From NCBI RefSeq assembly GCF_000179635.2, contig NC_014833.1:840001-872000 (forward strand): DNA of 32,000 nt. The letters run 5' to 3'. Source of the DNA: Ruminococcus albus 7 = DSM 20455. GTDB taxonomy: Bacteria > Bacillota > Clostridia > Oscillospirales > Ruminococcaceae. The position numbers and the translations under genes were made by a program. The notes under the pieces were generated by a model. That model was given only the letters and a program-made list of their open reading frames with translations. It was not told the origin of the DNA and made no database searches. Each line of letters starts with the position of its first letter. Position 1 is the first letter of the stretch. This document shows, in pieces, positions 17,481-31,688 of this stretch.

Positions 17481-20400
17481 ATGCACAAGAAAATGAAACG
17501 TATCGTTGCAGGGCTTGTGGCAATTACCGGTGCTTTATCGGCAACAGCCGCATCTGCACCTATGAGTGTGTTTGCAAAAAATGAACAGATAATTATTCAG
17601 TCTGACTTCAATGCAGGAATGGGTCTTCCCTGGCGCACATTCGAGAATGCACCGGCACGGCAGGACTTCGATATTTCAGACGGCACTTACAATATAACGA
17701 TACAGAATAACGATGGTCCCGAGTCAAGATGGGATCTTCAGTTCCTTTACAAAAATTTCTATATACAAAAAGGTCATACTTACAAGGTACACTGGAAGGT
17801 CAATTCTTCCAATGAGGGTGAGCTGTATACTAGGATCGGTAATTACGGCGGAACTGTTGAAGTTTGGCACAACAACTGCGGCAATGATGATTTCAATCAG
17901 ACGTGGGAATGCGTAAAGATCGCTAAAGGCGACAACACCTTCGATGCTGAGTTTACAGCTAAAGAAGATATGGATCGTGCTTGCTGGATATTTGATTACG
18001 GCGGACAGGGTCAGTATCAGCCGGTAGATTGCTTCCCCAACGGTACGGTCCTCAAATTCGACGATCTGTCTTTGATCGACACTACTTCCGGGGGCTGTAT
18101 AATCGATTTCATTCCTAACGATTGGGGCATTGTAAGACCCGAAAGCAACGTTCGTCTGAATCAGATCGGTTACTATCCTCAGCTGGAAAAGAGGGCTTCT
18201 TATGTTACCGATGCTGATATGCCACTGACTTTTGAGATACGTGACAGATCGGGCAACGTAAAGTACACAGGCAAGACGAAGGTATTCGGCAGCGATCCTG
18301 ATTCGGGTACAGGTAAGGATACAGTTGTTAATTCGGTCACAAGATACAAGGACTCGGGTGCCAACGTACATATCATTGATTTCTCTGATTTCAGAACTGT
18401 GGGCGAGTACACTATATTCGTTAAGGATACAGTCGGCGTAAGCGGCACTCAGGTGATGGGTTCTAAGAAAGTAAACGATACAAGGCTAAGCGGTGATAAG
18501 CTTTTATGGACAAATCCCGTTACTATGAAAACTTATACGATGAACGAGAGCAGTACATTCAGGATAGACAGACAGATCTATGATGATCAGCTGCTGAGGG
18601 ATTCCATGAACTACTTCTATCAGAACCGCTCAGGAGTCCCGATAAAGTCTGAGTACATCACATCAGGTGATAAGTCCGCACTGTCACACCTTAAATATGG
18701 TCATAACCCCGATATGGCTTATGTACAGAGCAAATGGGTAAAGACTTACGAAGATGACTTCTCTGATGGCGAGAAGGATAAGAAGATCGACGTTACAGGC
18801 GGATGGTACGCTGCAAGCGACCACGGTAAGTACGTTGTCGAAGGCGGTTTCTCCGTATGGACACTTCAGAACGCTTATGAGTTCTCCAAGAGGAGCGGCA
18901 ATACTCGCAAGTGGACTGACGGCACTATAGCTGTCCCCGAAAATAAGGATAATGCTCCCGATATACTGGATGAAGCAAGGGTAGAGCTGGAGTGGATGTT
19001 CAAAATGATAAATGAGGACGGCTTTGTATATCATTCAGTGCAGGACTATAAGTGGGCAGATATTCCGATCAGGTTAGGGCCCATATACTGTACGGACCCC
19101 CCAATGGAGTACACTTATCCTTACCGTATCGTCAGACCTCCTACGTATGCAGCCACATTCAACATGATCGCTTGTGCTGCACAGGCTTCACGTCTGTGGA
19201 AGGGCATAGATGATGACTTCGCAAAAGAGTGTCTGCAAAATGCACAGAACAGCTGGAAGGCTATCATGGCTAAGCAGTCCAATTGGAACGTTACAAGTGG
19301 CTATTACTATGATGATCCTTACTTTGCTCCCAGTGAATCCGGCGGAAACAACTTTTTCGGTGACACCTATGTAGTTGACGATGCTTACTGGGCAGCTTGT
19401 GAGCTTTATGCTACAACAGGGGACTCGGCTTACTATGGCTTCTTAAAAAACTATAAAAATTATAATGATCCGTCAGGTCAGGATAAGGCATTCAGCCTGA
19501 CTTCCTGCCTGAGCGGTGGTGAGAACAACGGTTCGTTCGGTTCCTTCAATTGGGGCAATACTGCGGGTCTGGGTACCCTTTCACTCTACCTGAGCGACAA
19601 GACATCTTCTGCTGACAGGAAGACTATTGTCAATTCTATCAAAAATATTGCTGACCAATATATTATTCAGATGAGTAAAGAAGGTATGGGCATACCTTAC
19701 AAGAGTGCGACTGTCGGGGGCTATATCGGTATCGGTGATGGAGATGTGTACACAGGTTATGAATACGGCTCCAACTCATTCGTTATCAACAACGCTATGG
19801 TCCTTGCATATGCTTATGATACTGATAACAGCAAATATATTTATCGGAACGGTGCTGCCGAAGCACTTGATTACCTCTTCGGACGCAACGGTCTGGGCTT
19901 CTCTTATGTATCAGGCTACGGCGATAAGGCAATGAGATCGCCACACCACAGATACTGGGCACAAAGTATTGATCCGTACTTCCCGGCGGCACCCTCAGGT
20001 GTTCTTGCAGGCGGTCCATGCTCAGATCTGTATCATGATAAATATCTTCGTGGTCTCGGCTATAAAAGAGGCACTTTAGCTGATCAGAAGTGCTATGTTG
20101 ACAGTGCAGAGGCATGGTCTGTAAATGATGTTTCCGGCAGCTGGAATGCTCCTCTGGTCTGGATGTCATCATTCATGAACGATCGTTTCGGCGGTCCGAA
20201 ACCAGTCCCCTATCCTACCAACATTAAGGTCGATTACAGTGAGGAGTATCATCAGGTAAGATTTACCTGGAACAAGGTGGAAAACGCTGACAGATACGGC
20301 ATAGCAGTTTATCTGGCAGGCAAGTGGAGAGTTCAGAAACAGGATATCACAGGCACTACCTACACTTCTCCCAAAAATCTGACTCCCGGCGTAACTTATA

Positions 20401-20483
20401 AGGTAGCGATTGCCGCAAGAGTGAACGGCACATGGGATACTGAAAATGCTATCAAACGTGCTTGTACTGTTACTATAAAGTGA
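17481..20483 (+). CDS. Multidomain glycoside hydrolase family 9 protein (signal peptide, CBM4/9-like module, Ig-like CelD_N module, GH9 domain, conserved C-terminal module)
   Basis: ATG at 17481 follows RBS AGGAGGG. Signal peptide MHKKMKRIVAGLVAITGALSATAASA. GH9 signature 1 SYVSGYGDKAMRSPHHR is intact. GGWYAASDHGKY and YVDSAEAWSVNDVSGSWNA are GH9 motifs with substitutions. C-terminus is YHQVRFTWNKVENADRYGIAVYLAGKWRVQ... Confidence 0.9.
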   Translation: MHKKMKRIVAGLVAITGALSATAASAPMSVFAKNEQIIIQSDFNAGMGLPWRTFENAPARQDFDISDGTYNITIQNNDGPESRWDLQFLYKNFYIQKGHTYKVHWKVNSSNEGELYTRIGNYGGTVEVWHNNCGNDDFNQTWECVKIAKGDNTFDAEFTAKEDMDRACWIFDYGGQGQYQPVDCFPNGTVLKFDDLSLIDTTSGGCIIDFIPNDWGIVRPESNVRLNQIGYYPQLEKRASYVTDADMPLTFEIRDRSGNVKYTGKTKVFGSDPDSGTGKDTVVNSVTRYKDSGANVHIIDFSDFRTVGEYTIFVKDTVGVSGTQVMGSKKVNDTRLSGDKLLWTNPVTMKTYTMNESSTFRIDRQIYDDQLLRDSMNYFYQNRSGVPIKSEYITSGDKSALSHLKYGHNPDMAYVQSKWVKTYEDDFSDGEKDKKIDVTGGWYAASDHGKYVVEGGFSVWTLQNAYEFSKRSGNTRKWTDGTIAVPENKDNAPDILDEARVELEWMFKMINEDGFVYHSVQDYKWADIPIRLGPIYCTDPPMEYTYPYRIVRPPTYAATFNMIACAAQASRLWKGIDDDFAKECLQNAQNSWKAIMAKQSNWNVTSGYYYDDPYFAPSESGGNNFFGDTYVVDDAYWAACELYATTGDSAYYGFLKNYKNYNDPSGQDKAFSLTSCLSGGENNGSFGSFNWGNTAGLGTLSLYLSDKTSSADRKTIVNSIKNIADQYIIQMSKEGMGIPYKSATVGGYIGIGDGDVYTGYEYGSNSFVINNAMVLAYAYDTDNSKYIYRNGAAEALDYLFGRNGLGFSYVSGYGDKAMRSPHHRYWAQSIDPYFPAAPSGVLAGGPCSDLYHDKYLRGLGYKRGTLADQKCYVDSAEAWSVNDVSGSWNAPLVWMSSFMNDRFGGPKPVPYPTNIKVDYSEEYHQVRFTWNKVENADRYGIAVYLAGKWRVQKQDITGTTYTSPKNLTPGVTYKVAIAARVNGTWDTENAIKRACTVTIK

Positions 20484-20514
20484 TAGACTTCATTGATCCA
20501 ATTTATTAAAAACA

Positions 20515-20549
20515 AAACGTGGCTGTTGCACCAAGCAACAGCCACGTTT
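20515..20549. terminator. Bidirectional rho-independent terminator between convergent genes
   Basis: A perfect 15-bp stem AAACGTGGCTGTTGC / GCAACAGCCACGTTT with a 5-nt loop. An A-tract lies on the left and TTTCTC on the right. Confidence 0.75.
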
Positions 20550-20638
20550 CTCATATTGTTTAACATATTTTCTGCACAGAACTATTCCAAGGCAGAAACT
20601 CTTCAAGTATATCGGGATCGGTGAAAAACTCCATGCTT

Positions 20639-21052
20639 TTACTGCCTATCAAACCCGTATGCGGTTATTTCCCAAAAACAATGTGCTAATATTGTTGAGT
20701 ATGAATAGTTTTTCAACGTATTAGCATCTATATTATATTGTAAAAAATCCGAGTAATCACAGGCTGCAATAGAATATACCTGATCTTCATCACCGTAATT
20801 GCCTCTGACATCATAATATAGTGATGTATCGTTTTCGTCAAAATGTTCGACATATTCGTCTTCATCTGAATCGCTGATTCTAAAAGCAGAGATATATACA
20901 GTAAATTTCTTATCTGTATGTGCTGCTGTAATAGATAACAGCTTATTATATAGTTCAGCGAATTTATCTATATCCTTATTTCCATAAAACATTTGTATCT
21001 TTTCAGATATTTCAGTAAATGGAGTTTGTCTTAAAATTTCATATATAGTCAT
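20639..21052 (-). CDS. Hypothetical acidic protein
   Basis: 137-aa ORF. Its start overlaps the upstream ORF stop by 14 nt. No family recognised with confidence. Confidence 0.5.
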   Translation of the reverse strand: MTIYEILRQTPFTEISEKIQMFYGNKDIDKFAELYNKLLSITAAHTDKKFTVYISAFRISDSDEDEYVEHFDENDTSLYYDVRGNYGDEDQVYSIAACDYSDFLQYNIDANTLKNYSYSTILAHCFWEITAYGFDRQ

Positions 21053-21281
21053 TTGTGTAGTTTTTCAAAGAATTCCCGGATAATCTTTCCATGGTTTGTT
21101 TATTTCCAAGAAGTCTATATGCAATTACAATGAAGCGCTGATAAATCGCATCAAAGATATAAGGCATCATCTCATCTCCGTCAGATATATCAAAATCGAC
21201 TTTGTAGAATAAAACCTTATTATTTTCTATCTCGGACAGCATTTCGAGCAGCTTGTAATCACGTTCTTTTGAAATAGCCAT
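21039..21281 (-). CDS. Hypothetical small protein
   Basis: 80-aa ORF coupled to 20639-21052. No recognisable family. Confidence 0.4.
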   Translation of the reverse strand: MAISKERDYKLLEMLSEIENNKVLFYKVDFDISDGDEMMPYIFDAIYQRFIVIAYRLLGNKQTMERLSGNSLKNYTNDYI

Positions 21282-21288
21282 TCAACTG

Positions 21289-21483
21289 CTAAACGGTTTT
21301 GCCTTCACGTCTTGAAAGCGCAAACGCCTGACACAGTGCAAGATGCTGTCCGAAATCCCGCAGCGGATAAACAGCATTTTCGGGGATTTCTGTTTCATCT
21401 GCAATCATTTTTAATGCAATAGCATCATAGCGCTGACCGATTGTATTTTTTAGTAATTCCGAAAGACGATTATTTTGTTCCAT
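21289..21483 (-). pseudogene. Possible N-terminal fragment of a DUF169-like protein
   Basis: The 64-aa product (..AIALKMIADETEIPENA...FGQHLALCQAFALSRREGKTV) resembles, from memory, the N-terminal ~60 residues of DUF169 proteins. It stops long before the usual ~230-aa length. Confidence 0.3.
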
Positions 21484-21941
21484 AGTAGATCTCCTTATAT
21501 TATTCCGAATGAAAGAATTAACATCGGCCGCACAGTAAATGCGCCAAGAAACTGCGGCAAGTTCTCACAATATAATAATATTTTATCTGATCCGGACGAA
21601 ATTATCAAGCCTTTTCTGTGTCAGCAACCGCCAGAAAAGAGTTAGATTATTAATATTATTGAGTCCTAAGCAAGTCTTTGGACTATTTTAGACCATTTGA
21701 AGTGGGATCGGTATACAATCGGAAATCACAACAATCACGGTTGGCATCTCAGAGTTATTATATATTTTATCTGTTTAATTATTTTTGTTTTTGCAAATTT
21801 CTTTTCTGCCGATTTTGCGCTGAAATAACACTATACCATAAATTATAAAGTCGATCATGATCGCAAAGTTATACAGATCTCACTTTTTGATTATCATGCT
21901 GTACGATATACGCATGGATCTTTCCTGATGCTATTATTAAA

Positions 21942-21971
21942 CAAGGCATTCACCAAACGATGAATACCTTG
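21942..21971 (-). terminator. Probable terminator of the dockerin-protein gene
   Basis: On the minus strand: CAAGGTATTCA-loop-TGAATGCCTTG (11-bp stem with one G-U pair) followed by TTTAAT. Confidence 0.45.
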
Positions 21972-22011
21972 TAATTTATTCGCTCGCTGAGTATGATTCC
22001 GGTCGTTTGTA

Positions 22012-23169
22012 TCATACTTCAGGAAGAGTATCTATCATTCTCAGAATATATTTTCTGACAGCCACAGCATCTGCATCGGTTATGCCATCGCCACTGCCCG
22101 AACAATCAGCGTTTATTTTTCCCTGCTCAGTCAGCTTATACTTTGAAGGTGCTGACAATGTCTGCTTGATAAGTACGAAATCAGAAATATCCACTTTTCC
22201 GTCGCAGTTTGCATCACCATAAACTGCCTTTGGATTATCCGGAATATTGCTCTCTGTTATGGGAGCCATGCTCGGTTCGGTATCACCCCACCAGTCCCAA
22301 CGGTCAGCGGTACGGTATTTCTCCATATTTCCGCCTGCCGAAGTCCAGGTAAACACATTGTCGTAAAGATGCCCTTCGTTATAATAAAACTGTGCCATCG
22401 AACAGATCTCATCAGCATAGGTCTTGTATGCACCATCGTCCTCAGCCATATAGCACCAGCCTGTATTAAAGCCCTTAAGGCTGTTCCTTATGACCTGATA
22501 GCCGTGCATTCCCTCTTCATTAATACAGATCTCAGCAAAGTGGAGTATCTTTCTGATACCCATGTGATTTGAGATTATACAATCATAGAAATTGGATTCC
22601 GTGAAAGAATACTGAAACATCTCAGGGACGTTGTCCTCGGGCATGAACTTGGGATTGCAGTCTGCAAAAGCAGTAACAGCGGTCTGAAGAGTACCATATG
22701 CATGGGCAGAGTTAACACCCCAGCCGTCTTCATAGGCTGTTTCATGGTCTGAGCCTATCTTGCCTTCACCCAGAGTAGATTCACGGGTACCAAGTCCAAG
22801 AAACAAAGCATACACCTTTTCACGTTCCGGTTGGCCAAGACGAGTGGAGATAAGATCCCAGTGCTCATCTATCTCTTTATAGAGAGCGTACTTTACCTCC
22901 TGCACTGTCATATTATGGTTGATAGCGCGTATCTCAGCCGTAGAAGCGTTTGCAGGAGTATTTCTCTCCCCAAAGCCAAGGGGATTGCCAACTCCTTCCT
23001 TCTGTATATCACGGGAAGTATCGTGCAGAGGGTCGCAGGTATTTCCGGCACAATACCATTCGTCTGCCGAAGCAACGATAGAAGTATCCATATCACCTGC
23101 CGATATCGACATTGATGATACGATCATTGCAGCCGCGGTAATGACACCGAAAAATCGTCTTTTATTCAT
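22012..23169 (-). CDS. Secreted dockerin-bearing protein with a possible lysozyme-like/lytic-transglycosylase-like domain
   Basis: The likely start is ATG at 23169 after RBS GAGGTG, with signal peptide MNKRRFFGVITAAAMIVSSMSISA. The C-terminal type I dockerin duplicate is GDANCDGKVDISDFVLIKQ ... DCSGSGDGITDADAVAVRKYIL. The central motifs TRES, AYGTLQ and GFNTGW resemble SLT motifs ES / GLMQ / AYNxG. Confidence 0.75.
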   Translation of the reverse strand: MNKRRFFGVITAAAMIVSSMSISAGDMDTSIVASADEWYCAGNTCDPLHDTSRDIQKEGVGNPLGFGERNTPANASTAEIRAINHNMTVQEVKYALYKEIDEHWDLISTRLGQPEREKVYALFLGLGTRESTLGEGKIGSDHETAYEDGWGVNSAHAYGTLQTAVTAFADCNPKFMPEDNVPEMFQYSFTESNFYDCIISNHMGIRKILHFAEICINEEGMHGYQVIRNSLKGFNTGWCYMAEDDGAYKTYADEICSMAQFYYNEGHLYDNVFTWTSAGGNMEKYRTADRWDWWGDTEPSMAPITESNIPDNPKAVYGDANCDGKVDISDFVLIKQTLSAPSKYKLTEQGKINADCSGSGDGITDADAVAVRKYILRMIDTLPEV

Positions 23170-23303
23170 AAATAACACCTCATGTTTTGAGTCGATTTAC
23201 TGACACGGACAGACCTCTGTCAAAGTGAAATTGAGGTCTGTCCAGATTACCGTTACAAATTATATCACATTTCCATGTAAATTTCAATATGATATTATAA
23301 AAA

Positions 23304-23445
23304 ATGGCTATCCCCTTAACACACTGCACGCAAAATCACTGCACCAAAGCAGTCGATAGCCTTAAATACGCACTGTTTCCAAGTTTACAGCAGTTGGATC
23401 AGTAGCAGTATTCGGCAACATATAACGCTGTGTGGATCTTTTCGC
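23304..23445 (-). mobile_element. Truncated, diverged third IS1595-family copy (right-end ~140 bp only, inverted orientation)
   Basis: ATGGCTATCCCCTTAACACACTGCACG...CACTGCACCAAAGCAG...AGCAGTATTCGGCAACATATAACGCTGTGTGGATCTTTTCG aligns by eye (mostly matching, with scattered mismatches) to the reverse complement of 10141-10293. Homology ends 11 bp before the xylanase stop codon. Confidence 0.75.
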
Positions 23446-23456
23446 CTACTCAGTTA

Positions 23457-24512
23457 TCACTCTACAGTAAAAGTCACAGCGTTTTTGATAGCATTTGCAG
23501 TATCCCATTTGCCATTAACTTTGGCTGCGATAGCTACGTTGTAGGTCTTGCCCGGGGTGAGGTTCTTGGGAGTAGTATATTCTGTATCGGTGATACTCGC
23601 CTCCTGAACTCTCCACTTGCCTGCCAGATAAACAGCTACGCCGTAACTGTCAGCACCATTTACAGCGTCCCAAGTAAATCTCATCTGCTTGTACTGGCTG
23701 TCATATTCCATCTGTATGTTCTTAACGGAATCATCTTTATGATGTCCGCAGTCACAGATGCCTCGTGGATACATATTCATAGAAACTTCAACCTGACCAT
23801 CGCTCTCCCAACCTTCAACGCTGAAAGAAATATCGTACAGGTTCCCCACCTTCATACCCAGGTCCTCCCAAGCCTTGAAGTGTTTGGAAACGCTGATAGT
23901 ACCCTTGGTTCTCGTGTTCTGACGTATGCTTATATACTGTGTGAAATACCTGTCGCCTTCGATGGTATAGGAATTTTTGTTTATAGTATATACCTTGTAC
24001 TCACTTCCGTCAATATTAACGGAACCCTTGTACTGTGCAGAAGCAGACTGCGCAGGTGACCAGTTCTTCCAGTCTTCAATGATGTAGTACTCTACCAGAG
24101 GATTCTGCGCCCAGCCGTAGATACCGATCCTGGCGTTACCGGATGAACCTGCATACCAGATGCAGTCGTAGTCACAGTAGAAATTACCATAGTCCTTGTA
24201 AGTCTTGGGATTATTCAGACCCCAGCGAAGACCACGATTAGTAATGAAGTTTCCTCTCGTGTTGTTAGGACCACACTTCCACTGTGCGCGGAAACCACCG
24301 TCATTTTCGTGCAGTGTCATTGTAGAAGAATTATTGGTATCTGCCTGCCAGATCTCGTGGTGGTAGTCGTTGTACCAGCCGACTTCCTGTGTGTGTGACG
24401 GGCTCGTAGTGAGCGTCTTTGCAGCAGATGCAGTAACTGATGTTATAATAGGTGAAACCATCAGCACACCGGCAACAAGAGCGCCTAAAACACGTTTTGA
24501 AACATTTTTCAT
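23457..24512 (-). CDS. Glycoside hydrolase family 11 endo-1,4-beta-xylanase with conserved C-terminal module
   Basis: Signal peptide MKNVSKRVLGALVAGVLMVSPIITSVTASA after RBS GAGGAG. GH11 hallmarks YGWAQNPLVEYYIIEDW (nucleophile Glu) and SVEGWESDG (acid/base Glu). C-terminus is YKQMRFTWDAVNGADSYGVAVYLAGKWRVQ... Confidence 0.92.
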   Translation of the reverse strand: MKNVSKRVLGALVAGVLMVSPIITSVTASAAKTLTTSPSHTQEVGWYNDYHHEIWQADTNNSSTMTLHENDGGFRAQWKCGPNNTRGNFITNRGLRWGLNNPKTYKDYGNFYCDYDCIWYAGSSGNARIGIYGWAQNPLVEYYIIEDWKNWSPAQSASAQYKGSVNIDGSEYKVYTINKNSYTIEGDRYFTQYISIRQNTRTKGTISVSKHFKAWEDLGMKVGNLYDISFSVEGWESDGQVEVSMNMYPRGICDCGHHKDDSVKNIQMEYDSQYKQMRFTWDAVNGADSYGVAVYLAGKWRVQEASITDTEYTTPKNLTPGKTYNVAIAAKVNGKWDTANAIKNAVTFTVE

Positions 24513-25110
24513 AAGCTATTTCTCCTCGCTATCAAAAAGATTAAAACTATATATAGATACTTAAATGATACAACGCATTGACTTTTTCGGTTCAATATTA
24601 TTTGATTATATTTTATAATTTTTTAGTAATTGGTTCTAATTATATTTTGCTTATTATCATTTTAGCAATACCATAAATTGCTATTTATTGCCTTTTAGTC
24701 ATCAACTATTTACTTTTTAAATTATAATTACCACAAATCTTTTAATCATTATAAGATAAGCATTCAACACATAAAACCCCGGAATTGCGCGGCTTCGCAG
24801 GATTGATAGCATAGAAAATGTATGTTCATAAATAAGGATCCGTCTGACATTAATACAATTTTTTTGTCATAAATTCAACATTTTTCATGCTAATATTGAT
24901 AGGCTTTAAATCGTACATCATACTCAAAGTATCAGTTAATTATCCGTTGTTTGTAATTTCACCGGTTTCTTACTCCCTATGAGTATTACAACAGCCTTTT
25001 TGACGACAGAAACAGTCTTTCCAAGACCGATACAGATGCGACATTTATGTGTATAAATGATGTTTGTATTGATAGGAATGATTTGAAATTTAAGTAGTTT
25101 AATATTACAG

Positions 25111-25154
25111 AAAATAACCGCCCCATTCCGTTTATAACAGTGGAATGGGGCGGT
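25111..25154 (-). terminator. Rho-independent terminator of the four-gene operon
   Basis: A perfect 13-bp GC-rich stem ACCGCCCCATTCC / GGAATGGGGCGGT followed on the minus strand by TATTTT. It lies 30 bp after the stop at 25185. Confidence 0.75.
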
Positions 25155-25184
25155 AGTTTATTCGTCATTTTGGTGTGGATCTGC

Positions 25185-25886
25185 TCATCTTGTGATATTA
25201 GCAATAGCGGCGGATATAACATCTTCTACGCCGCAGACTTTATCAATTTTATCCTTGTCGGGAGCATTCCTTAGTTCTGCGATACCTGCTCTCCACAAAA
25301 CCAGAGTATTTACATTCAGTGAATCTATCCGCTGTGACATGGCACTGTTGCGGGTGTACATATCAGATATCATCATAATACCTTGTGATGCTATGTTTGC
25401 CGAGATTACAAGGTCGTTTATTTTTTTATCTGCAAGGATCTGGTAGTATTTCCAGTCGGTATCTTTATCTTTGTTTTTCATATGTTCACTCAATGCGGCT
25501 GATGCTTCATTAAGCTCCTGTATGCAGCACTCCAGCACTTGTTTCATGGTGTCAAGCAGCATATTCTCTTTGTATAGTCCTATGTATATTTCCTGAAAGC
25601 TATCGGATATCCTCTGGGCTTCTTTGTCAGCTTTTTCAGCATTGTCAATGAGTCTTGCGTAGCTTATAGTTCCCACAAATCCCTTGTATTTTGCCAGACC
25701 GTTTATCTTTAGCTGGTCTGAAGCAAGGGTCAGGACATTTATAGCTTTGTCAGGCATCCTATCCTGCTGTATTCTGAATAACATATCTGATGTATCAGCT
25801 ATTCTCTTCTGAACATCTCCTGCATATGAGGGGAGAAGTTCAAAGGTCATCATATCGGGGGTATATTTCTTGGTACTATTCAGCAT
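25185..25886 (-). CDS. Short TelA-like (toxic anion resistance/YaaN-KlaB family-like) helical protein; gene 4 of the operon
   Basis: 233 aa, all-helical in character. ADKKINDLVISANIASQGIMMISDMYTRNSAMSQRIDSLNVNTLVLWRAGIAEL parallels the conserved TelA core (..DKR.HDL..S.Q...Q...I.....N.....KI.S......PLWK.Q..), recalled from memory. Its start overlaps the upstream stop (ATGCTGA). The ORF call is solid; the family call is moderate. Confidence 0.65.
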   Translation of the reverse strand: MLNSTKKYTPDMMTFELLPSYAGDVQKRIADTSDMLFRIQQDRMPDKAINVLTLASDQLKINGLAKYKGFVGTISYARLIDNAEKADKEAQRISDSFQEIYIGLYKENMLLDTMKQVLECCIQELNEASAALSEHMKNKDKDTDWKYYQILADKKINDLVISANIASQGIMMISDMYTRNSAMSQRIDSLNVNTLVLWRAGIAELRNAPDKDKIDKVCGVEDVISAAIANITR

Positions 25887-26770
25887 GACCTGTTCACCTT
25901 AGCAAGCTTGATATACTTATCAAGATCTATCTTCTTAAAAAAATTATAACTGTCACAATTTATATCCTGACCAAATATACCCATCTGAACTGGTGATGAA
26001 ATGACTATATCAGTATCGGGTATATTGAAGATATCACGGAACTGGTCTTCCGTAAGAGGCTGACCATAATAGGGATACCAGTTCTTTTCGTGGAATGACA
26101 TGGACTCCATCACCCTCAGCACGACACGTCGTAAAAACATAACCGAGCACATGGGGTAGAAGCATTTTTTCATATTAATAGGTTCCGACGGGCTTTTCAG
26201 CCTTATCTCGGAGTTGAACACCTCGTCATTGCTGTAGCATGAGCTGAACACTTTAAGGTCAACACCTATGCCGTATTCTTCAAGCAGTTTTATCAGACTG
26301 AGAGTCAGCGCGCCGCGGTTGGTGACTGCCTGCTCTAAGGTGTGAATTGAATATGCCAGATTGAACCATATAGTAACGAATTTTTTCTCTCTTGCTCTTG
26401 TGAGCCTGTACATTGTCTTCGGAGTACCTGCCACGTACGCGGGAATATTTGGGTGAGAGCCTGCCATTGCCTTTTCCTGCCTGCGTCTGTAAGTTCTTAT
26501 CGGCATAGTCTTTTCAAATTCCTTCAGCATTTCCAGTGTAATGTCATAATTACCCGTATATCCGCCGATAAGATAATCTACAGCATTATCAAAGGTATCC
26601 TCGGGAAAATCCGGACGTCTGATGATACTGTGCTGTTTGAGAAATATTTTGTCGTTTACTTTAGGTTTGCTGAGTATATACATCTGCATATCACTCAGAC
26701 TGTTGAACGCCGCATTGTATACAGTCATTTTTTTGTATTGGTATACTTTGAGGTTCATAAATTCTCTCAT
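25880..26770 (-). CDS. Unknown protein, partner immediately downstream of the AAA_5 NTPase; gene 3 of the operon
   Basis: 296 aa. ATGA start/stop overlap with the NTPase gene. No motif I can assign. The strand-helix pattern KKFVTIWFNLAYSIH...RGALTLSLIKLLEEYGIGVDLKVF could be a degenerate vWA/Rossmann-like core without a DxSxS MIDAS. Confidence 0.75.
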   Translation of the reverse strand: MREFMNLKVYQYKKMTVYNAAFNSLSDMQMYILSKPKVNDKIFLKQHSIIRRPDFPEDTFDNAVDYLIGGYTGNYDITLEMLKEFEKTMPIRTYRRRQEKAMAGSHPNIPAYVAGTPKTMYRLTRAREKKFVTIWFNLAYSIHTLEQAVTNRGALTLSLIKLLEEYGIGVDLKVFSSCYSNDEVFNSEIRLKSPSEPINMKKCFYPMCSVMFLRRVVLRVMESMSFHEKNWYPYYGQPLTEDQFRDIFNIPDTDIVISSPVQMGIFGQDINCDSYNFFKKIDLDKYIKLAKVNRSC

Positions 26771-28911
26771 CGTCTTGTTTCTCCGTTTCGTATAGCGTTA
26801 ACTATATTGCTGAACACGCTGAATATCCCGACACTTTTTCTTTCACGACCGTCGTAGAACTTTGCCATTTCTCTCTGTAGAAATGCAAGATATTCGCTGT
26901 CCTTGGTCTCAACGAATTCATATCTGACGATCGCCTCGACATCGTAACTCTGGTGATCAAGGTACTTCTTTATGCTGGTTGCATCACGGGTGGTGAATAT
27001 ACCCGGAGCTGCTGTCTGATTTTCTTTGCTCCATGCAGTGGTGGCATTGCGGAAGACCTCAGCGAATTCAAACCACTGAGGATAATTACAAAGTATGTTC
27101 TCTTCAAGTCTGTTATCGTAATCAACGTATATCGCTGTGAATCTCTGCATGAGAGATTCCTCTATCTTCTCACGGGTGCTGTAATTCCTGTCAGCGCCGT
27201 CACCTGCGGTGTTGCCTGCTGCTATGATACGGAAATTCGGGTGGCGCATTACTCGCTCGCCGTTAGGGAAGCAGTAGCTTGCATTTTTGGAATTGGACAT
27301 AAAGCTGTTGAGTTTTACTGCTGCCCTGATATTGCCATTATCAAATTCATCGCAGAAAACTATACCGCCGTATTTGTATGCTCGGTAGAATGCAGGATAG
27401 TTGTATCCGCCGTCCGCTGTCTGGAATCCCAGCAGGTCATATTCCTCGTTTATGTAGCCGATATCCAGATATTCCAGTCCCAACAGCTTGGCTATCTGCC
27501 CTACAAGAAAAGTTTTTCCGCAGCCGGATGGGCCTATCATATATGGGTTTGAATCTTCGATTACAGCGGTGATTATATCATCGAAATGCTCATGATAAAG
27601 AGTATTGTTTTCATCGATATACTTCTGCTTTTTCTCCATGAGTTTTGCGAACCTGTCTTTGAAGGGATAGGATTCATCAAAGAAGAAATTAGGTGTCATA
27701 TCAGCAGGCTCGGTGCATCTCTGGGCATTTATCTGAACTATGGTTGGGTGCACTCCTGCCGCCACCTGTATTGGTGCGGCAGCTGCTTCAGTTTTTTCGG
27801 CGTCGAAATTTTTGCTGAACTCATCAACGCGTATTATTCTGTTCACCAGATCACTGCTCTTGTTTACCTCTGATATGATATTTTTCAGTTCGCCGTTGTT
27901 AAGCATTGACGAGGCTCTGTCAATAGCTTTGTTTGCCTCCGTGTTTATGCGGAAAAGCTCTGCGGCTGTGTTGTCCTTTATGCCTGAAGCCAACAGTTTA
28001 AGCTCTCTTATCTTACTGTCCGCAGAATCTATGACATCTCTGATCAGCTTATCCTTTTCAAACACTATACTGTCATGTTCTTCGTTCAGAAAAGCATCAA
28101 AAGATTCTTTCAACTTGAATTCCGCATTCTTTGCTTCTCTTGTAAGTTTTTCCGTCTCACTAAGTGTGAGATCCTTGATAGTCTTTTCATTCTGCTCAAC
28201 AAATCTTTTGAAGCTGTCGAGGCGATCTTCTGTAAGGTCGAGAGTGTGCTTTGCGTTCTCAAGGTTTTCCTTGCTGTTTTTCAGCAACATCTCAGACCTT
28301 GCTATCCTTTCTTCACTGATATCGTATATTCCGCAAGCCATTCGCGCATAGCTGAGAAGTTTTTCACATTCGATCTCTTTGTCATGAGCACTGCATATCT
28401 TGATAGCACCGCTTATAAGCGATGAGGCAAAGCTTTTCTCATTGTTGTGGTACTGTCTGAGCTCACAGCTGAAAGTATTGATATAATAGATGTTTTTTTC
28501 TGCTGTTGGTATATCTGCAATGGTGCACATGGTATCGATGTAGATCTGCTTGTCACTGAAACATAAATACATCTCTTTAGTGAACAATCCTGAATGATAG
28601 ATGCCGTCCTTTTCAAATATTTTCAAAAATACTGCATTTGCAAACCTGAAATCTTTGGTTGCTTTTCCGAGAGGAAGTACGGTGCGGTAGATATCCTCTG
28701 CATCTTTCATTATTTCTATAGGCGATTTTTCACTTCGGGAAGTTATAATGCTGTTGACCAGCTTTGAAAGTGTTTCTTCCGAGCCGAATCTGTTTTTATC
28801 GGGCTCCCGCTTTATCTCACTGAGGTATATACTCAGCGGAACATATTTATCGTCCTTTTTTAACGCTGCCTTGACCGCCTGCAATATTGCGTCTATCCTG
28901 TTTTTTGTCAT
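26767..28911 (-). CDS. Coiled-coil-containing AAA_5 (MoxR/McrB-like) NTPase; gene 2 of the operon
   Basis: 714 aa. Walker A GPSGCGKT (27511-27534), Walker B IVFCDEFD (27340-27363), sensor region IIAAGNTAGDGAD (27190-27228) and LMQRF. The N-terminal ~190-aa domain is unassigned. A long E/K/L-rich heptad-like segment covers about aa 195-345 (27879-28329). Confidence 0.85.
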   Translation of the reverse strand: MTKNRIDAILQAVKAALKKDDKYVPLSIYLSEIKREPDKNRFGSEETLSKLVNSIITSRSEKSPIEIMKDAEDIYRTVLPLGKATKDFRFANAVFLKIFEKDGIYHSGLFTKEMYLCFSDKQIYIDTMCTIADIPTAEKNIYYINTFSCELRQYHNNEKSFASSLISGAIKICSAHDKEIECEKLLSYARMACGIYDISEERIARSEMLLKNSKENLENAKHTLDLTEDRLDSFKRFVEQNEKTIKDLTLSETEKLTREAKNAEFKLKESFDAFLNEEHDSIVFEKDKLIRDVIDSADSKIRELKLLASGIKDNTAAELFRINTEANKAIDRASSMLNNGELKNIISEVNKSSDLVNRIIRVDEFSKNFDAEKTEAAAAPIQVAAGVHPTIVQINAQRCTEPADMTPNFFFDESYPFKDRFAKLMEKKQKYIDENNTLYHEHFDDIITAVIEDSNPYMIGPSGCGKTFLVGQIAKLLGLEYLDIGYINEEYDLLGFQTADGGYNYPAFYRAYKYGGIVFCDEFDNGNIRAAVKLNSFMSNSKNASYCFPNGERVMRHPNFRIIAAGNTAGDGADRNYSTREKIEESLMQRFTAIYVDYDNRLEENILCNYPQWFEFAEVFRNATTAWSKENQTAAPGIFTTRDATSIKKYLDHQSYDVEAIVRYEFVETKDSEYLAFLQREMAKFYDGRERKSVGIFSVFSNIVNAIRNGETRR

Positions 28912-28921
28912 ATCCTTCCAC

Positions 28922-30037
28922 CTATTCGTTATCTTTATGTAAGTATCTGTCTATTATTTCAACACCGGGTATACCAAAAAGATCATCCTTGATTTTTTTG
29001 ATCTCTCCATCGTTTATATGTCGGTAATAATATCCTTCCTGTGAGCTGTCCAGGCTCTTTATGATTCTTGTGCAGCACAGTTTTGATTGTACAAGCAGCC
29101 TGGTTTTTTCTCTGAATATTTCATGAACTACCGATATCTCACTTTTTCTGCCGTTGCAGAGTTCTTCCTCATATATCTGAGTTATCATTTCGCTGTCATT
29201 GCAGTAAATTGTTTCTTTATCCGTCATGAAGATCTTTTCGCCCCAAGGCAATAAAGCTCCCTGAGCATAATTGCCGCCGATCTCGCATATCAGCTTCACT
29301 TCCTCAGACATTTCAGTTTTTTCAAGCTCGGGAGAGATCTCCTCACAGAATATCACTTGTCCGTCTTCGATGATCATACATCTGAGGCTGTTCTGTAATA
29401 GATCGTATATATATTCATGTCGAAGCTCCCTATCGGTAAAACTTTGGGTTATCACTTCGGTTTTTGAATGGGCATACCTGAGCGTGATCTGTGCTGTGTG
29501 AGTGCCATTGAATAGATTTCCCAGAGTATAAACATATTCGTTACCCTGTGAAGTTATGCTGCATGGCAGTTGTTTATTTATTCCGTTGACAGTACAGGAT
29601 ATCATATATCTGTTTCTGTTCCCTTTGATGTTTGAAAGCCTAAATGTTGCTTCTGCATCACTGTATATCTTTGAAAGAAAGTATTCGATGAAATTTTTGG
29701 AAAACATACCTGTGCCGAACGTCAGTACCTTTTCTTCATGCTTACTGCACTCAGCAATAAAGTTGAAACGCGTGGGGAAACTAAGTTTTTTACGTTTCTC
29801 AATTATCTCGGAAGTATAGTCGTCGAAACAGCTTTCGGGGTAATTGAGATACAATCGGTCTGCTGTTTTTGCCAGCATGGAGAAGTAGTCGTCATATTCA
29901 CATAGATTGATATACTTATTTCCGTTATATATCACTATCAGTGCCTGTGTGTTATCAGGCATGGTGTAATATCTTATCAGATCTGCTTTTTCTATCTGAG
30001 ATATTTCCAACTGAGTTCTGCTCATGAATGGTGTCAT
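28922..30037 (-). CDS. Unknown protein; gene 1 of the operon
   Basis: 371 aa. The ATG is 10 nt after RBS AGGAG (30048-30052). There is a 10-bp gap containing GGTGGAAGGA before the next gene. No signal peptide, TM segment or motif I recognise. Confidence 0.75.
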   Translation of the reverse strand: MTPFMSRTQLEISQIEKADLIRYYTMPDNTQALIVIYNGNKYINLCEYDDYFSMLAKTADRLYLNYPESCFDDYTSEIIEKRKKLSFPTRFNFIAECSKHEEKVLTFGTGMFSKNFIEYFLSKIYSDAEATFRLSNIKGNRNRYMISCTVNGINKQLPCSITSQGNEYVYTLGNLFNGTHTAQITLRYAHSKTEVITQSFTDRELRHEYIYDLLQNSLRCMIIEDGQVIFCEEISPELEKTEMSEEVKLICEIGGNYAQGALLPWGEKIFMTDKETIYCNDSEMITQIYEEELCNGRKSEISVVHEIFREKTRLLVQSKLCCTRIIKSLDSSQEGYYYRHINDGEIKKIKDDLFGIPGVEIIDRYLHKDNE

Positions 30038-30072
30038 AGTTTACGCACTCCTGTACGCGTTAGAATTATAAT

Positions 30073-30189: not shown

Positions 30190-30362
30190 ATATTATATCA
30201 TATGTATCAATAAAAGTAAAGCAACTGCAACGTGCTTGAATGTTAGCTTTAGTTGCGAAGCCTCACACGACTAAAGTCGCGTGCTTCCAATAGTGTCCTA
30301 TAGGACACGCCCACTTTAGGAGGGCGGACTACGTTTCTACCATACAGCCTGAACTCAGAAAA
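30190..30362 (-). ncRNA. Candidate omega-RNA (reRNA) scaffold/right end of the TnpB element (boundaries approximate)
   Basis: It lies immediately 3' of the tnpB stop. Dense hairpins on the minus strand: CGCCC-n10-GGGCG, GTGTCC-TATA-GGACAC, GAAGC[CACGCGAC-TTTA-GTCGTGTG]AGGCTTC and GCAAC-n21-GTTGC. The complementary ACTTTAGT / ACTAAAG segments suggest a pseudoknot. Confidence 0.45.
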
Positions 30363-31688
30363 TTATGCTGTTGGAGCAATAAATTCCGCATTCAGGTTAA
30401 CTAAGGTAGAGAACGTGCAGGTGCTTCTCTTACTGCATTGAGGGACTTTAGCCTCAATGAGCAACCTTGAATTCTCATCCAAGGATTTTAATATTTCACG
30501 TATGAAGTATCTTGCCCCTATATTATACGAAGCAGATAGATCACAGTTGTAGGTCTTGCCATTTTGAAATTTGCATAGCTCATAGGTATTGAAACCACCG
30601 AATTTACCACGAAGTACAAAACCACTGCCATCGTAGGCAAGGCGTGACGTATTCCATGCACAGATATGGCTTACTCTCATACCTAGTCTGTGAGCTTTAT
30701 TCGTTACAATAGACTGAACTTCCTGACTGCGCCACAGCTTGAGTTTCTGCTTTTTAGAACCGCGGACCTTACCGTTCTTGTCTAAATGCTCAAATACAAT
30801 AACATCTGCATTATAAAGAACAGCTATATCTACGATGCAGGCAGCAGTTTTAGTGGCAATGTCGTGATTGATTCCTTTGGCTTTTGCCCAAAGCCTTGGT
30901 GTTTTATAGTTACCATGCTGCTGAGCTTTTTTTATACGGTTAACACAATGCATAAGATGGTCTGTTTCTTTGGTAAGCTTATAAAAATGCCTTCCAAGAA
31001 TAGTGCCATCTGAACGCATTACGGAAATCGTAGCTGCGGTGTTTATTCCAAGATCTACAGCAACAATGGTCTGTTCATACACAGATATATCTGCAAGTTT
31101 GACCTTTTCCTCAAACGGAAAGTCCAAAAACCACTCCTTGCCTCGTTTTTGAAGTGTTGGAGCGCATTGCTTGCGAAAATTGCAATGTCTGTATATATAA
31201 TCCATATCAGACTTTTTAAAGTTTATCGTTATCCAGTCCCATGTATTACGGATGTAGACTTTGATCTGGGCAGTATAATCACCGGTCTGATTGTACATTC
31301 CTGTACGATACATTGACGGAAATGTATATCCTGCTTTTGGATACGATGGTTCTCTGCCTACAGGATCTTTTATCCAATTGGCGAGATTGCTTTTGTAAGA
31401 TGATACCTTGCCTATAGCTTCGTTAATAGCACCACGGCGCAGATAGCTTGGCATCTTATAGAATTTTGTATCAAAATCATAAATTGGATCGGGATTATCT
31501 TTTGTAGAATGGATCAGTGTTTCAATATATGTGAGTTTACTCACCCCTTTGAATGAAACAATGTTATCCCATTTATCAAGACATACTTTGATAAGGTAAT
31601 CTACAGCATGTCTGTATACGATAACGGTATCTTTAAAGATGTTGTTGTAATGCTTGATCTTAACGCTATAAGTCGTATATATCTGCAT
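30363..31688 (-). CDS. tnpB: IS200/IS605-family TnpB-like RNA-guided endonuclease (OrfB), with no TnpA nearby
   Basis: 441 aa. The RuvC triad context is IVAVDLGIN (D), DVIVFEHLD (E) and YNCDLSASYNIGARY (D, matching the hADxNAAxNI motif). RBS GGAGGGAG upstream. The usual CxxC...CxxC zinc finger between E and the last D appears degenerate. Confidence 0.85.
   Translation of the reverse strand: MQIYTTYSVKIKHYNNIFKDTVIVYRHAVDYLIKVCLDKWDNIVSFKGVSKLTYIETLIHSTKDNPDPIYDFDTKFYKMPSYLRRGAINEAIGKVSSYKSNLANWIKDPVGREPSYPKAGYTFPSMYRTGMYNQTGDYTAQIKVYIRNTWDWITINFKKSDMDYIYRHCNFRKQCAPTLQKRGKEWFLDFPFEEKVKLADISVYEQTIVAVDLGINTAATISVMRSDGTILGRHFYKLTKETDHLMHCVNRIKKAQQHGNYKTPRLWAKAKGINHDIATKTAACIVDIAVLYNADVIVFEHLDKNGKVRGSKKQKLKLWRSQEVQSIVTNKAHRLGMRVSHICAWNTSRLAYDGSGFVLRGKFGGFNTYELCKFQNGKTYNCDLSASYNIGARYFIREILKSLDENSRLLIEAKVPQCSKRSTCTFSTLVNLNAEFIAPTA

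What the first reader, a model, noticed from the sequence alone, without database searches (positions are those of the whole stretch)
26767..28911. AAA_5 NTPase with an unassigned N-terminal domain and a ~150-residue coiled coil; sensor region resembles the McrB NTAD motif
The C-terminal third has a complete Walker A (GPSGCGKT), Walker B (FCDEFD followed by NGN, compare DExNRAN) and LMQRF. The sensor-1 region reads IIAAGNTAGDGAD, which resembles the MNTAD(R/K)S signature of McrB-type GTPases as much as it resembles MoxR ATPases. A heptad-rich E/K/L segment (27879-28329) and a ~190-aa globular N-terminus with no motif I know lie upstream. Coiled coil fused to a McrB-like NTPase is the defining feature of the recently described coiled-coil McrBC relatives, but here no nuclease domain is visible.
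Basis: partly seen in the sequence, partly recalled or inferred. Interest (0 to 1): 0.6.

Follow-up and report, generated by a model that had tools for sequence, protein, structure and literature searches.

The report
CobS-like ATPase in TelA operon
The 714-residue protein is a MoxR/CobS-type ATP-driven remodelling motor, not a McrB-type restriction GTPase, and it sits in a conserved but undescribed four-gene operon of rumen and gut Clostridia whose two-gene core also occurs in phage K-like viruses.

Summary
The ORF is real: window 26767-28911, minus strand, 714 aa. All quoted motifs are at the stated positions.

The McrB/coiled-coil-McrBC reading fails.
- Sequence and fold searches place the ATPase with NorQ, CbbQ, CobS and Midasin. 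McrB never appears.
- The sensor-1 stretch is the CobS signature (NTxGxGD...Y...[DQ]R[FW]).
- The McrB NxxD aspartate position is an invariant glycine.
- The partner is not McrC. It is a DUF7192 protein whose predicted fold is closest to NorD/CobT vWA domains, with a degenerate metal site.

The N-terminal 192 residues form a confident all-helical domain found only in this family (112 clusters among 1.84 billion representatives). A single helix of about 129 residues follows, with 11/3 rather than heptad periodicity.

The gene belongs to a four-gene operon: a fast-evolving 371-aa protein, this ATPase, DUF7192, and a TelA-like protein. All four genes are present in the window and in 10 further loci, in two gene orders.

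The ATPase+DUF7192 pair recurs in Staphylococcus Kayvirus phages.

Best reading: a MoxR-vWA-type remodelling machine linked to a TelA-like protein. Its biological role is unknown. It is a new variant of a known kind and of moderate interest.

The parts
30192..30220 (-). Promoter-like site upstream of the first operon gene (TTTACT, 17-nt spacer, TG-extended TATAAT).
   Evidence: (10 of 12 matches, TG before the -10 hexamer) and sequence. This is a consensus match only. The region as a whole has no more promoter-like matches than shuffled sequence.
28922..30037 (-). Operon gene 1: a 371-aa protein of unknown fold. It is the fastest-evolving component.
   Evidence: No hit in Pfam, PADLOC, PHROGs or NCBIfam and no PDB sequence match. 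Homologues occupy the same position in all 10 other loci. Identity is 21-26% where the ATPase is 38-52%.
26767..28911 (-). The finding: a 714-aa CobS-like MoxR-class AAA+ ATPase with an N-terminal extension.
28336..28911 (-). N-terminal all-alpha globular domain (aa 1-192), found only in this family.
   Evidence: AlphaFold2 pLDDT 87-97. The profile finds 112 clusters among 1.84 billion representatives, always at the N-terminus. Eight of the 10 distant ones tested also carry AAA_5. No Pfam, PDB or PHROG match.
27928..28314 (-). Single long amphipathic helix (aa 200-328) with about 3.67-residue (hendecad) periodicity.
   Evidence: helix H200-328; periodicity against shuffles and across 61 members.
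27670..27927 (-). Linker (aa 329-414). It is low-confidence and probably disordered up to about aa 388. Its length varies across the family.
   Evidence: pLDDT 33-44; the segment between the N-terminal domain and the AAA+ module is 206-269 residues in 61 members.
26770..27669 (-). AAA+ module with lid (aa 415-714). It holds Walker A (27511-27534), Walker B (27340-27357), sensor-1 with the CobS-type loop (27190-27228), the QRF arginine, and TTRD (candidate sensor-2).
   Evidence: (invariant G460-T467, D521, E522, N567, R590, R642).
25880..26770 (-). DUF7192 partner (296 aa), a vWA-like adaptor with a degenerate MIDAS site. Its start overlaps the ATPase stop (ATGA).
   Evidence: Pfam PF23822, E 6.9e-21; phrog_1909. 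AlphaFold2 pTM 0.77. Foldseek top PDB hit is the NorD VWA domain. In BFVD, phage DUF7192 proteins come first, followed by phage vWA/CobT-like proteins. Junction sequence.
26393..26497 (-). Conserved, structurally unresolved loop of DUF7192 (aa 92-126, AGSHPNIPAYVAGTPKTMYRL). It is a candidate 'finger' that could enter the ATPase pore.
   Evidence: Seven invariant residues across 23 sequences reaching down to 34% identity. pLDDT below 50. The motif G..P.VP....G.P..M is retained in phage 812 Gp47. The pore-insertion role is an inference from NorD and CobT.
25185..25886 (-). TelA-like protein (233 aa, a short form). Its start overlaps the DUF7192 stop by 7 nt.
   Evidence: Pfam TelA, E 3.7e-8, 33.3 bits against a cut-off of 30. 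Homologues of 219-408 aa occur in every locus, mostly with confident TelA hits.
25108..25154 (-). Intrinsic terminator: a 16-bp GC-rich hairpin followed by TATTTTCT, about 30 nt after the TelA-like stop.

Best explanation
The 714-aa protein is the motor subunit of a conserved four-gene operon.

Shown:
- Its C-terminal 300 residues are a catalytically intact MoxR-class AAA+ ATPase of the CobS-like branch.
- The next gene encodes DUF7192.
- The operon also encodes a TelA-like helical protein and a fast-evolving protein of unknown fold.

Inferred:
- The ATPase forms a hexameric ring, as NorQ, CbbQ and CobS do.
- DUF7192 is a vWA-derived adaptor that has lost its metal site. It plays the part that NorD, CbbO or CobT play for their ATPases. 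Its conserved, unstructured loop (aa 92-126) enters the ring pore, so ATP hydrolysis pulls or twists the adaptor and whatever it holds.
- The family-private N-terminal domain is held about 19 nm from the ring by the long amphipathic helix and a flexible linker. It recruits or senses the other two proteins.
- The machine most likely assembles, disassembles or activates a TelA-based cytoplasmic or sub-membrane structure during envelope stress or phage conflict.

The classification and the motor-adaptor logic are well supported. The substrate and the biological role are guesses.
For: Class of the ATPase:
- AAA_5 and phrog_249 'CobS-like', E 5.4e-32.
- PDB sequence hits: Midasin 8.6e-16, CbbQ 5.7e-6, NorQ 2.8e-4, CobS 0.029.
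- Foldseek top 24 hits are NorQ, CbbQ and MoxR.
- The sensor-1 loop aligns to CobS.
- The phage relatives score best on the CobS and GvpN models.
- Walker A and B, sensor-1 Asn, R590 and R642 are invariant in 61 sequences.

Partner:
- DUF7192 always follows the ATPase gene directly.
- The best solved structural match is the NorD VWA domain from the NorQ-NorD complex (E 6e-3, probability 1.0).
- In BFVD the tier below DUF7192 itself is phage vWA/CobT-like proteins (probability 0.91-0.95).
- The MIDAS position reads NLAYS here and NSSIS in phage 812 Gp47.

Mechanistic precedent: the NorD finger and the CobT shaft enter the ATPase pore.

Operon:
- All four genes are present in the window and in 10 other loci from Ruminococcus, other Oscillospiraceae, Lachnospiraceae, Acetatifactor and Lachnoclostridium.
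- TelA comes first in two loci.
- Coding regions overlap at two junctions, there is one promoter-like site, and there is a clear terminator.
- Homology to the R. albus locus is confined to 25176-30058, which is the cassette.
- None of the four proteins has a predicted membrane span.
Against: - The vWA assignment of DUF7192 rests on weak fold matches (TM 0.21-0.31). There is no sequence-level hit to any vWA family.
- No complex was modelled, so the pore-insertion step and every contact with TelA or gene 1 are inferred from gene linkage only.
- No effector or enzymatic output domain is recognisable.
- The flanks are mostly housekeeping genes, not defence islands.
- PADLOC finds nothing.
- TelA itself has no known mechanism.
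Confidence: 0.55

Rival explanations
1. A dedicated maturation chaperone for a housekeeping target encoded elsewhere (metal or cofactor insertion, or complex assembly), as NorQD is for nitric oxide reductase and CbbQO for Rubisco. The TelA-like and gene-1 proteins would be accessory factors rather than substrates.
For: The closest solved relatives all do this job. Flanks are ordinary metabolic and carbohydrate-active genes.
Against: No candidate target gene is conserved next to the cassette. The flanks differ in every locus and homology stops at the cassette edges. The MIDAS site that such adaptors use is degenerate. Gene 1 and the N-terminal domain evolve fast.
Confidence: 0.2
2. A phage-derived module: a prophage remnant or domesticated phage gene pair that still serves phage replication or superinfection exclusion rather than a host function.
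For: The ATPase+DUF7192 pair is adjacent in Staphylococcus Kayvirus phages (phage 812 Gp48/Gp47, phage K ORF15/ORF14). The ATPase also matches Listeria, Lactobacillus, Mycobacterium and Clostridium phages, and the partner also matches Lactobacillus and Enterococcus phages. The family profile scores 129-143 bits on phage proteins. DUF7192 against Gp47 gives hhalign probability 98.8%.
Against: There are no phage structural or integration genes around any of the loci. No full-length member or close DUF7192 was found in IMG/VR viral contigs. The N-terminal domain, gene 1 and TelA are absent from the phage versions.
Confidence: 0.1
3. One reading: a McrB-type GTPase fused to a coiled coil, related to the coiled-coil McrBC (CoCoNuT) restriction systems, here without a nuclease.
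For: It belongs to the AAA_5 superfamily, as McrB does. hhalign of the family against E. coli McrB gives 39% probability over the Walker A to sensor-1 core, aligning IIAAGNTAG with IIGLMNTAD. It has a long N-terminal helix.
Against: No McrB among PDB sequence hits to E=10 or among the Foldseek top 50. The family profile scores 9 bits on McrB, from Walker A only. The NxxD aspartate position is an invariant Gly. No McrC/DUF2357 or PD-(D/E)xK partner is present. The partner looks vWA-like.
Confidence: 0.03
4. A genuine CobS/CobT cobaltochelatase motor for vitamin B12 synthesis, which is the basis of the database label 'porphyrin biosynthesis' on the phage homologues.
For: CobS-type sensor-1 signature. 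phrog_249 annotation. Weak TIGR01650 hits.
Against: 12 bits against a TIGR01650 cut-off of 558.55. No CobN or corrin-pathway gene in any locus. The partner lacks the CobT MIDAS site and is half the size of CobT-like proteins. The ATPase carries a 414-residue extension that CobS lacks.
Confidence: 0.03

Closest known systems
Phage 'CobS-like' AAA+ ATPase + DUF7192 gene pair (PHROG 249 / PHROG 1909), e.g. Staphylococcus phage 812 Gp48/Gp47 and phage K ORF15/ORF14
   Same: Same ATPase core, including the AAGNTxGxGAD...Y...R sensor-1 loop (129-143 bits). Same partner family, with the conserved loop motif (hhalign 98.8%). Same gene order and adjacency.
   Different: The phage ATPases are about 290-380 aa and lack the N-terminal domain, long helix and linker. 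No TelA-like or gene-1 homologue accompanies them. No function has been published for them: no paper in the library mentions DUF7192.
NorQ-NorD and CbbQ-CbbO (MoxR AAA+ / vWA chaperone pairs)
   Same: Best solved structural and sequence matches for the ATPase. The NorD VWA domain is the best solved match for the partner. The ATPase gene is followed by the adaptor gene.
   Different: Identity is only 16-21%. The adaptor MIDAS site is degenerate. No target enzyme is encoded nearby. The ATPase carries a large N-terminal extension.
CobS-CobT, the motor and adaptor of aerobic cobaltochelatase
   Same: Shared sensor-1 / post-sensor-1 signature. AAA+ ring plus vWA adaptor whose shaft enters the pore.
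   Different: Far below the CobS family threshold. No CobN. The partner is much smaller and has no MIDAS site.
McrB / CoCoNuT CnuB GTPases
   Same: AAA_5 superfamily. CnuB also has a long N-terminal helical fusion.
   Different: No conserved Nx(x)D signature, no McrC-like partner, no nuclease, and not the closest class by sequence or fold.
TelA/Ter stress and phage-resistance systems (TelA with the vWA proteins TerF/TerY), and MoxR-vWA conflict systems described by Aravind and colleagues
   Same: A TelA-family protein is genetically linked to a vWA-like protein. TelA and vWA proteins have been proposed to form sub-membrane structures (PMC7824862). MoxR-vWA pairs act as signalling modules in conflict systems.
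   Different: No TerB, TerC or TerD, kinase, phosphatase, beta-propeller or effector domains are present. A MoxR ATPase directly linked to TelA was not found in the literature searched.

Membership tests
McrB-type AAA+ GTPase (including CoCoNuT CnuB) | Conserved Nx(x)D signature motif at sensor-1 (NxxD, NxD or NxxxD), required for GTP hydrolysis (PMC11090510). | tested here: not met
   Sensor-1 Asn N567 is invariant, but N+3 is an invariant Gly (G570). N+4 is Asp in the window protein and Asn in the family consensus. N+2 is Ala or variable.
McrB-type AAA+ GTPase (including CoCoNuT CnuB) | An adjacent McrC-like partner (DUF2357, with or without a PD-(D/E)xK nuclease). | tested here: not met
   Pfam on all four operon proteins gives DUF7192, TelA and nothing else. 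The same set is found in 10 other loci.
McrB-type AAA+ GTPase (including CoCoNuT CnuB) | Closest sequence and structure relatives are McrB proteins. | tested here: not met
   No McrB among PDB phmmer hits to E=10. None in the Foldseek top 50. 9 bits on E. coli McrB, from Walker A only. hhalign probability 39%, which reflects generic AAA_5 core similarity.
McrB-type AAA+ GTPase (including CoCoNuT CnuB) | GTP rather than ATP specificity. | not testable with these tools
   This needs a nucleotide hydrolysis assay.
MoxR-class AAA+ ATPase (CbbQ/NorQ/GvpN/CobS-like) | Intact Walker A, Walker B, sensor-1, arginine finger and sensor-2 in an AAA_5-type core. | tested here: met
   G460-T467, D521, E522, N567, R590 and R642 are invariant in 61 sequences. 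AAA_5 E 1.6e-9. Assigning R590 and R642 to the arginine finger and sensor-2 is by position, not by structure.
MoxR-class AAA+ ATPase (CbbQ/NorQ/GvpN/CobS-like) | Closest solved relatives are MoxR-class proteins. | tested here: met
   CbbQ 5.7e-6, NorQ 2.8e-4, CobS 0.029, Midasin 8.6e-16. Foldseek top 24 are NorQ, CbbQ and MoxR CHU_0153.
MoxR-class AAA+ ATPase (CbbQ/NorQ/GvpN/CobS-like) | Genetically paired vWA-domain adaptor. | tested here: inconclusive
   The partner is always adjacent. Its model hits the NorD VWA domain (E 6e-3, probability 1.0, 80 columns) and phage vWA/CobT-like proteins (probability 0.9), but TM scores are low (0.2-0.3) and no vWA Pfam family matches. The MIDAS motif DxSxS is replaced by NLAYS.
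MoxR-class AAA+ ATPase (CbbQ/NorQ/GvpN/CobS-like) | Hexameric ring that engages the adaptor through its pore. | not testable with these tools
   No multimer prediction was available. Inferred from NorQD and CobST.
CobS (cobaltochelatase subunit, TIGR01650) | Score above the curated family cut-off. | tested here: not met
   12.3 bits against a cut-off of 558.55. The phage relatives score 22-25 bits.
CobS (cobaltochelatase subunit, TIGR01650) | Works with a MIDAS-bearing CobT and with CobN. | tested here: not met
   No CobN or CobT in any locus. The partner has no MIDAS site.
Phage CobS-like ATPase / DUF7192 pair (PHROG 249 + PHROG 1909) | Both profiles matched, and the two genes adjacent on one strand with the ATPase first. 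| tested here: met
   phrog_249 5.4e-32 and phrog_1909 3.2e-23. The same arrangement is seen in phage 812.
TelA (PF05816), for the fourth operon gene | Score above the Pfam gathering threshold. | tested here: met
   33.3 bits against 30 for the short window form. Confident TelA hits for the 233-408 aa forms in L001, L011, L012, L014 and L024.

The most novel reading that the evidence does not exclude
The four-gene cassette (fast-evolving protein, long-helix CobS-like ATPase, MIDAS-less vWA-like DUF7192, TelA-like protein) is a previously undescribed, horizontally moving conflict or envelope-protection system of gut and rumen Clostridia. In this reading the variable gene-1 protein and the private N-terminal domain sense an invader or envelope damage. 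The ATPase-adaptor pair then drives assembly of a TelA-based structure. The stripped-down ATPase+DUF7192 pairs of phage K-like viruses would be the viral counterpart, used for takeover, counter-defence or superinfection exclusion.
Probability: 0.25. Interest if true: 0.7.

Novelty: new variant of a known kind. Interest (0 to 1): 0.45.

Why it matters
MoxR-vWA motors are common but few have a known job. TelA proteins have had a phenotype (tellurite, nisin and cell-wall antibiotic tolerance) without a mechanism for decades. This operon ties a TelA-family protein to a defined ATP-driven motor-adaptor pair, so biochemistry can be done on it.

The same motor-adaptor pair is a conserved gene pair of unknown function in Kayvirus phages (phage K and its relatives). 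The label 'porphyrin biosynthesis' on those phage genes is very probably wrong. Working out the bacterial system would also explain the phage genes.

The result also removes a false lead: this is not a nuclease-less McrBC relative.

Tried and rejected
- The full-length family profile (A1) against PDB sequences gave only Walker-A and coiled-coil noise. The family is too narrow for this to be informative.
- DUF7192, N-terminal-domain, gene-1 and TelA-like profiles against PDB sequences found nothing meaningful.
- Pfam at E up to 10 on 23 DUF7192 proteins found no vWA family.
- PADLOC on all four proteins gave nothing above noise.
- Rfam on the window gave nothing.
- I tested whether the ATPase or gene 1 correspond to E. 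coli YehL/YehM, because two Lachnospiraceae loci have YehP/YehQ/YehI-like genes directly upstream. There was no similarity by BLASTP or hhalign, and the adjacency is absent from the other loci. I treated it as a lineage-specific neighbourhood.
- hhalign of the TelA-like and gene-1 profiles against the ATPase family, to test for shared domains, found nothing.
- The viral-contig scans found no family member.
- The N-terminal domain could not be fold-searched alone.
- Two attempts to read the 2012 Ter-system paper failed because it is not held.


Full report
**1. The observation**

The ORF at window 26767-28911 (minus strand, ATG start, 714 aa) is present. A GGTGGAAGG ribosome-binding site lies 10 nt after the stop of the upstream gene.
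- GPSGCGKT, aa 460-467.
- FCDEFD followed by NGN, aa 519-527.
- IIAAGNTAGDGAD, aa 562-574.
- LMQRF, aa 587-591.

Pfam AAA_5 covers aa 458-578. The protein is a real gene product. It has 129 full-length relatives of 690-780 aa in Ruminococcus albus, other Oscillospiraceae and Lachnospiraceae. The catalytic residues are invariant in a 61-sequence alignment that reaches down to 32% identity.

**2. What kind of NTPase it is**

Four lines of evidence place it in the MoxR class, on the CobS-like side.
- phmmer of aa 415-714 against all PDB chain sequences, up to E=10, returns Midasin (8.6e-16), CbbQ (5.7e-6), NorQ (2.8e-4) and CobS (0.029). No McrB appears.
- An AlphaFold2 model was built from the 61-sequence alignment (mean pLDDT 78; AAA+ module mostly above 80). 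Foldseek of that model finds NorQ, CbbQ and the MoxR protein CHU_0153 as its 24 best PDB matches, and no McrB in the top 50.
HPNFRIIAAGNTAGDGADRNYSTREKIEESLMQRF aligns with CobS HPAFRLFATANTVGLGDTTGLYHGTQQINQAQMDRW.
- The McrB family is defined by a conserved Nx(x)D motif (PMC11090510). Here the residue three positions after the sensor-1 Asn is an invariant Gly. The Asp at +4 in the window protein is Asn in the family consensus.

A family profile of the AAA+ region scores 143 and 129 bits on Clostridium phage CS266P3 gp44 and Staphylococcus phage 812 Gp48. It scores 9 bits on E. coli McrB, from Walker A only. hhalign gives 39% probability to McrB over the core. That reflects the shared AAA_5 superfamily, not membership.

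The protein is not a true CobS either. It scores 12 bits against a TIGR01650 cut-off of 558, and no CobN or corrin-pathway gene lies nearby.

**3. The N-terminal 414 residues**

The model has three parts:
- A confident all-helical globular domain, aa 1-192, pLDDT 87-97.
- One uninterrupted helix, aa 200-328.
- A low-confidence linker reaching to about aa 388.

A profile of the globular domain was searched exhaustively against 1.84 billion representative proteins. It finds only 112 clusters, and the match is always at the N-terminus. The full-length hits are 600-780 aa, and eight of the 10 distant ones tested also carry AAA_5. The domain has no match in Pfam, PHROGs or PDB sequences. It is therefore private to this family.

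The helix is amphipathic. Its dominant periodicity is 3.65-3.7 residues (11/3, hendecad) in 55 of 61 members, and the heptad signal is secondary. 'Coiled coil' is a fair label. However, 11-residue periodicity also fits a helix that lies on a surface or packs in a straight bundle.

**4. The partner**

The next gene (25880-26770) overlaps the ATPase stop codon. It encodes a DUF7192 protein (Pfam E 6.9e-21; phrog_1909). No paper in the library mentions DUF7192.

Its model (pTM 0.77) has a beta1-alpha1-beta2-beta3-alpha2/alpha3 core. Fold searches point to a vWA-like domain:
- The best solved match is the NorD VWA domain in the NorQ-NorD complex (E 6e-3, probability 1.0, 80 columns). Further NorD chains and TRAP vWA follow at lower probability.
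- In the viral structure library, the top 12 hits are phage DUF7192 proteins (TM 0.53-0.67). The next tier is phage vWA/CobT-like proteins (probability 0.91-0.95).

Where vWA domains carry the DxSxS metal site, this family has NLAYS and the phage K-type homologue has NSSIS.

A 35-residue loop (aa 92-126) is unstructured in the model. It holds seven invariant residues, and its motif G..P.VP....G.P..M survives in the phage homologue.

I read DUF7192 as a vWA-derived adaptor without a metal site. The fold evidence is consistent in two libraries but weak, with TM scores of 0.2-0.3. No vWA sequence model matches.

**5. The operon**

Four minus-strand genes form one unit:
- Gene 1, 371 aa, no detectable homology outside the family.
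- The ATPase.
- DUF7192.
- A TelA-like protein, 233 aa, Pfam TelA 33.3 bits against a cut-off of 30.

Two junctions overlap (ATGA, and 7 nt). A TG-extended promoter-like site lies at 30220-30192. A textbook intrinsic terminator (16-bp GC-rich stem followed by TATTTTCT) follows the last stop codon.

All four genes recur in 10 other loci:
- L001, L003, L011, L012, L013 and L014.
- L006 and L007.
- L024 and L025.
- Pairwise homology was confirmed.

In L011 and L024 the TelA gene is first, and the linkage is kept. The ATPase and DUF7192 are conserved (38-52% and 42-51% identity at the distances sampled). Gene 1 and TelA-like diverge much faster (21-26%).

Against the R. albus locus, nucleotide homology (86%) runs from 25176 to 30058 and stops there. 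The cassette therefore sits as a discrete 4.9-kb block in unrelated surroundings.

Other points about the context:
- The window itself is chromosomal Ruminococcus-type DNA with cellulosome genes and several insertion sequences, and no prophage.
- No family member was found in IMG/VR viral contigs.
- None of the four proteins has a predicted membrane span.
- PADLOC recognises none of them.

**6. The phage link**

tblastn finds the ATPase core in 427 phage records and DUF7192 in 237, mostly Staphylococcus Kayvirus. In phage 812 the two genes are adjacent and in the same order: Gp48, labelled 'porphyrin biosynthesis', then Gp47, then a small membrane protein.

A cobS-cobT gene pair is known to be widespread in tailed viruses (PMC8651126). 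The pair described here is a reduced relative of it, with a smaller adaptor that lacks MIDAS.

**7. How it most likely works**

Shown:
- An intact MoxR-class ATPase.
- An obligatorily linked DUF7192.
- A conserved four-gene operon that includes TelA.

Inferred from NorQ-NorD and CobS-CobT, where a finger or shaft of the vWA adaptor enters the ring pore and ATP hydrolysis twists or pulls the adaptor:
- The ATPase forms a hexamer.
- The conserved DUF7192 loop is the pore-engaging element.
- The adaptor transmits force to a client.

Guessed from gene linkage and from evolutionary rates:
- The N-terminal domain on its long helix, together with the fast-evolving gene-1 protein, provides recognition.
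- The TelA-like protein is the client or the output.

TelA proteins are linked to tolerance of tellurite, nisin and cell-wall antibiotics. They have been proposed to form sub-membrane structures together with vWA proteins in Ter systems (PMC7824862). I therefore favour an envelope-stress or phage-conflict role, with low confidence.

**8. Comparison, novelty and verdict**

[quoted passage not shown] It is not a member of McrB/CoCoNuT: three defining features were tested and not met. It is not a member of CobS proper.

The closest described relatives are the uncharacterised phage CobS-like/DUF7192 pairs.

New here:
- The private N-terminal domain plus long helix.
- The fixed association with a TelA-family protein and a fourth fast-evolving protein.
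- The recognition of DUF7192 as a probable vWA-derived adaptor.

This is a new variant of a known kind. It is of moderate interest, mainly because it offers a tractable handle on TelA and on a conserved gene pair of unknown function in phage K-type viruses.

Noticed in passing
window 25176-30058 versus L013 7854-12751: Nucleotide homology (86%) between this window and a Ruminococcus albus contig covers exactly the four-gene cassette and stops within about 20 nt of its first start and last stop codon. The flanks are unrelated, which suggests the cassette moves or is rearranged as a block. No terminal repeats were looked for.
   Followed up: partly
L012 317-7660 and L001 1-6659, directly upstream of the cassette: In two related Lachnospiraceae genomes the cassette follows, after a 34-nt gap (L012), homologues of E. 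coli YehP (VWA_CoxE, 42% identity), YehQ and YehI (DUF4132), plus a 115-aa gene that sits in the position where a YehK-like gene might be expected but showed no BLASTP similarity to YehK. No YehL-type MoxR ATPase or YehM is visible in the stretch held. The long-helix ATPase might serve that vWA protein too. No similarity to YehL or YehM was found.
   Followed up: partly
L011 6064-13970: One distant member is followed by a compact NAD salvage and turnover cluster: isochorismatase/PncA-like, NAPRTase, NUDIX, NAD synthase, NMNAT-like, ADP-ribosylglycohydrolase, CinA, NAD kinase and an NrtR-like regulator.
   Followed up: no
window 856-1900 and 9271-10300: Two copies of an IS1595-family insertion sequence, 97% identical and in direct orientation. 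Each has a 291-aa transposase. They bracket about 7.4 kb, which makes a possible composite transposon.
   Followed up: no
window 30363-31688 (-) and 30250-30362: A 441-aa TnpB/IS605 OrfB-like protein lies immediately upstream of the operon (weak OrfB_IS605 and Cas12f-TNB hits; phrog_506 3.8e-17). The roughly 110 nt after its stop codon contain GC-rich inverted repeats and could encode its guide (omega) RNA. Rfam found nothing.
   Followed up: partly
window 11621-12438: Two 300-nt direct repeats, 94% identical and spaced 518 nt apart, next to an IS66 transposase fragment (10231-11151, minus strand).
   Followed up: no
window 17409-24512: A cluster of plant-cell-wall enzymes: a GH9 cellulase with CBM4_9 (1024 aa), Cel124 with a type I dockerin, and a GH11 xylanase with an fn3 domain. 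This marks the host as a cellulosome-bearing Ruminococcus.
   Followed up: no
L004 4989-5873 (Staphylococcus phage 812 Gp48) and its homologues in other phages: The RefSeq/PHROG label 'porphyrin biosynthesis' on the Kayvirus ATPase derives from a distant CobS similarity (25 bits against a cut-off of 558). It is unlikely to describe the protein's function.
   Followed up: partly
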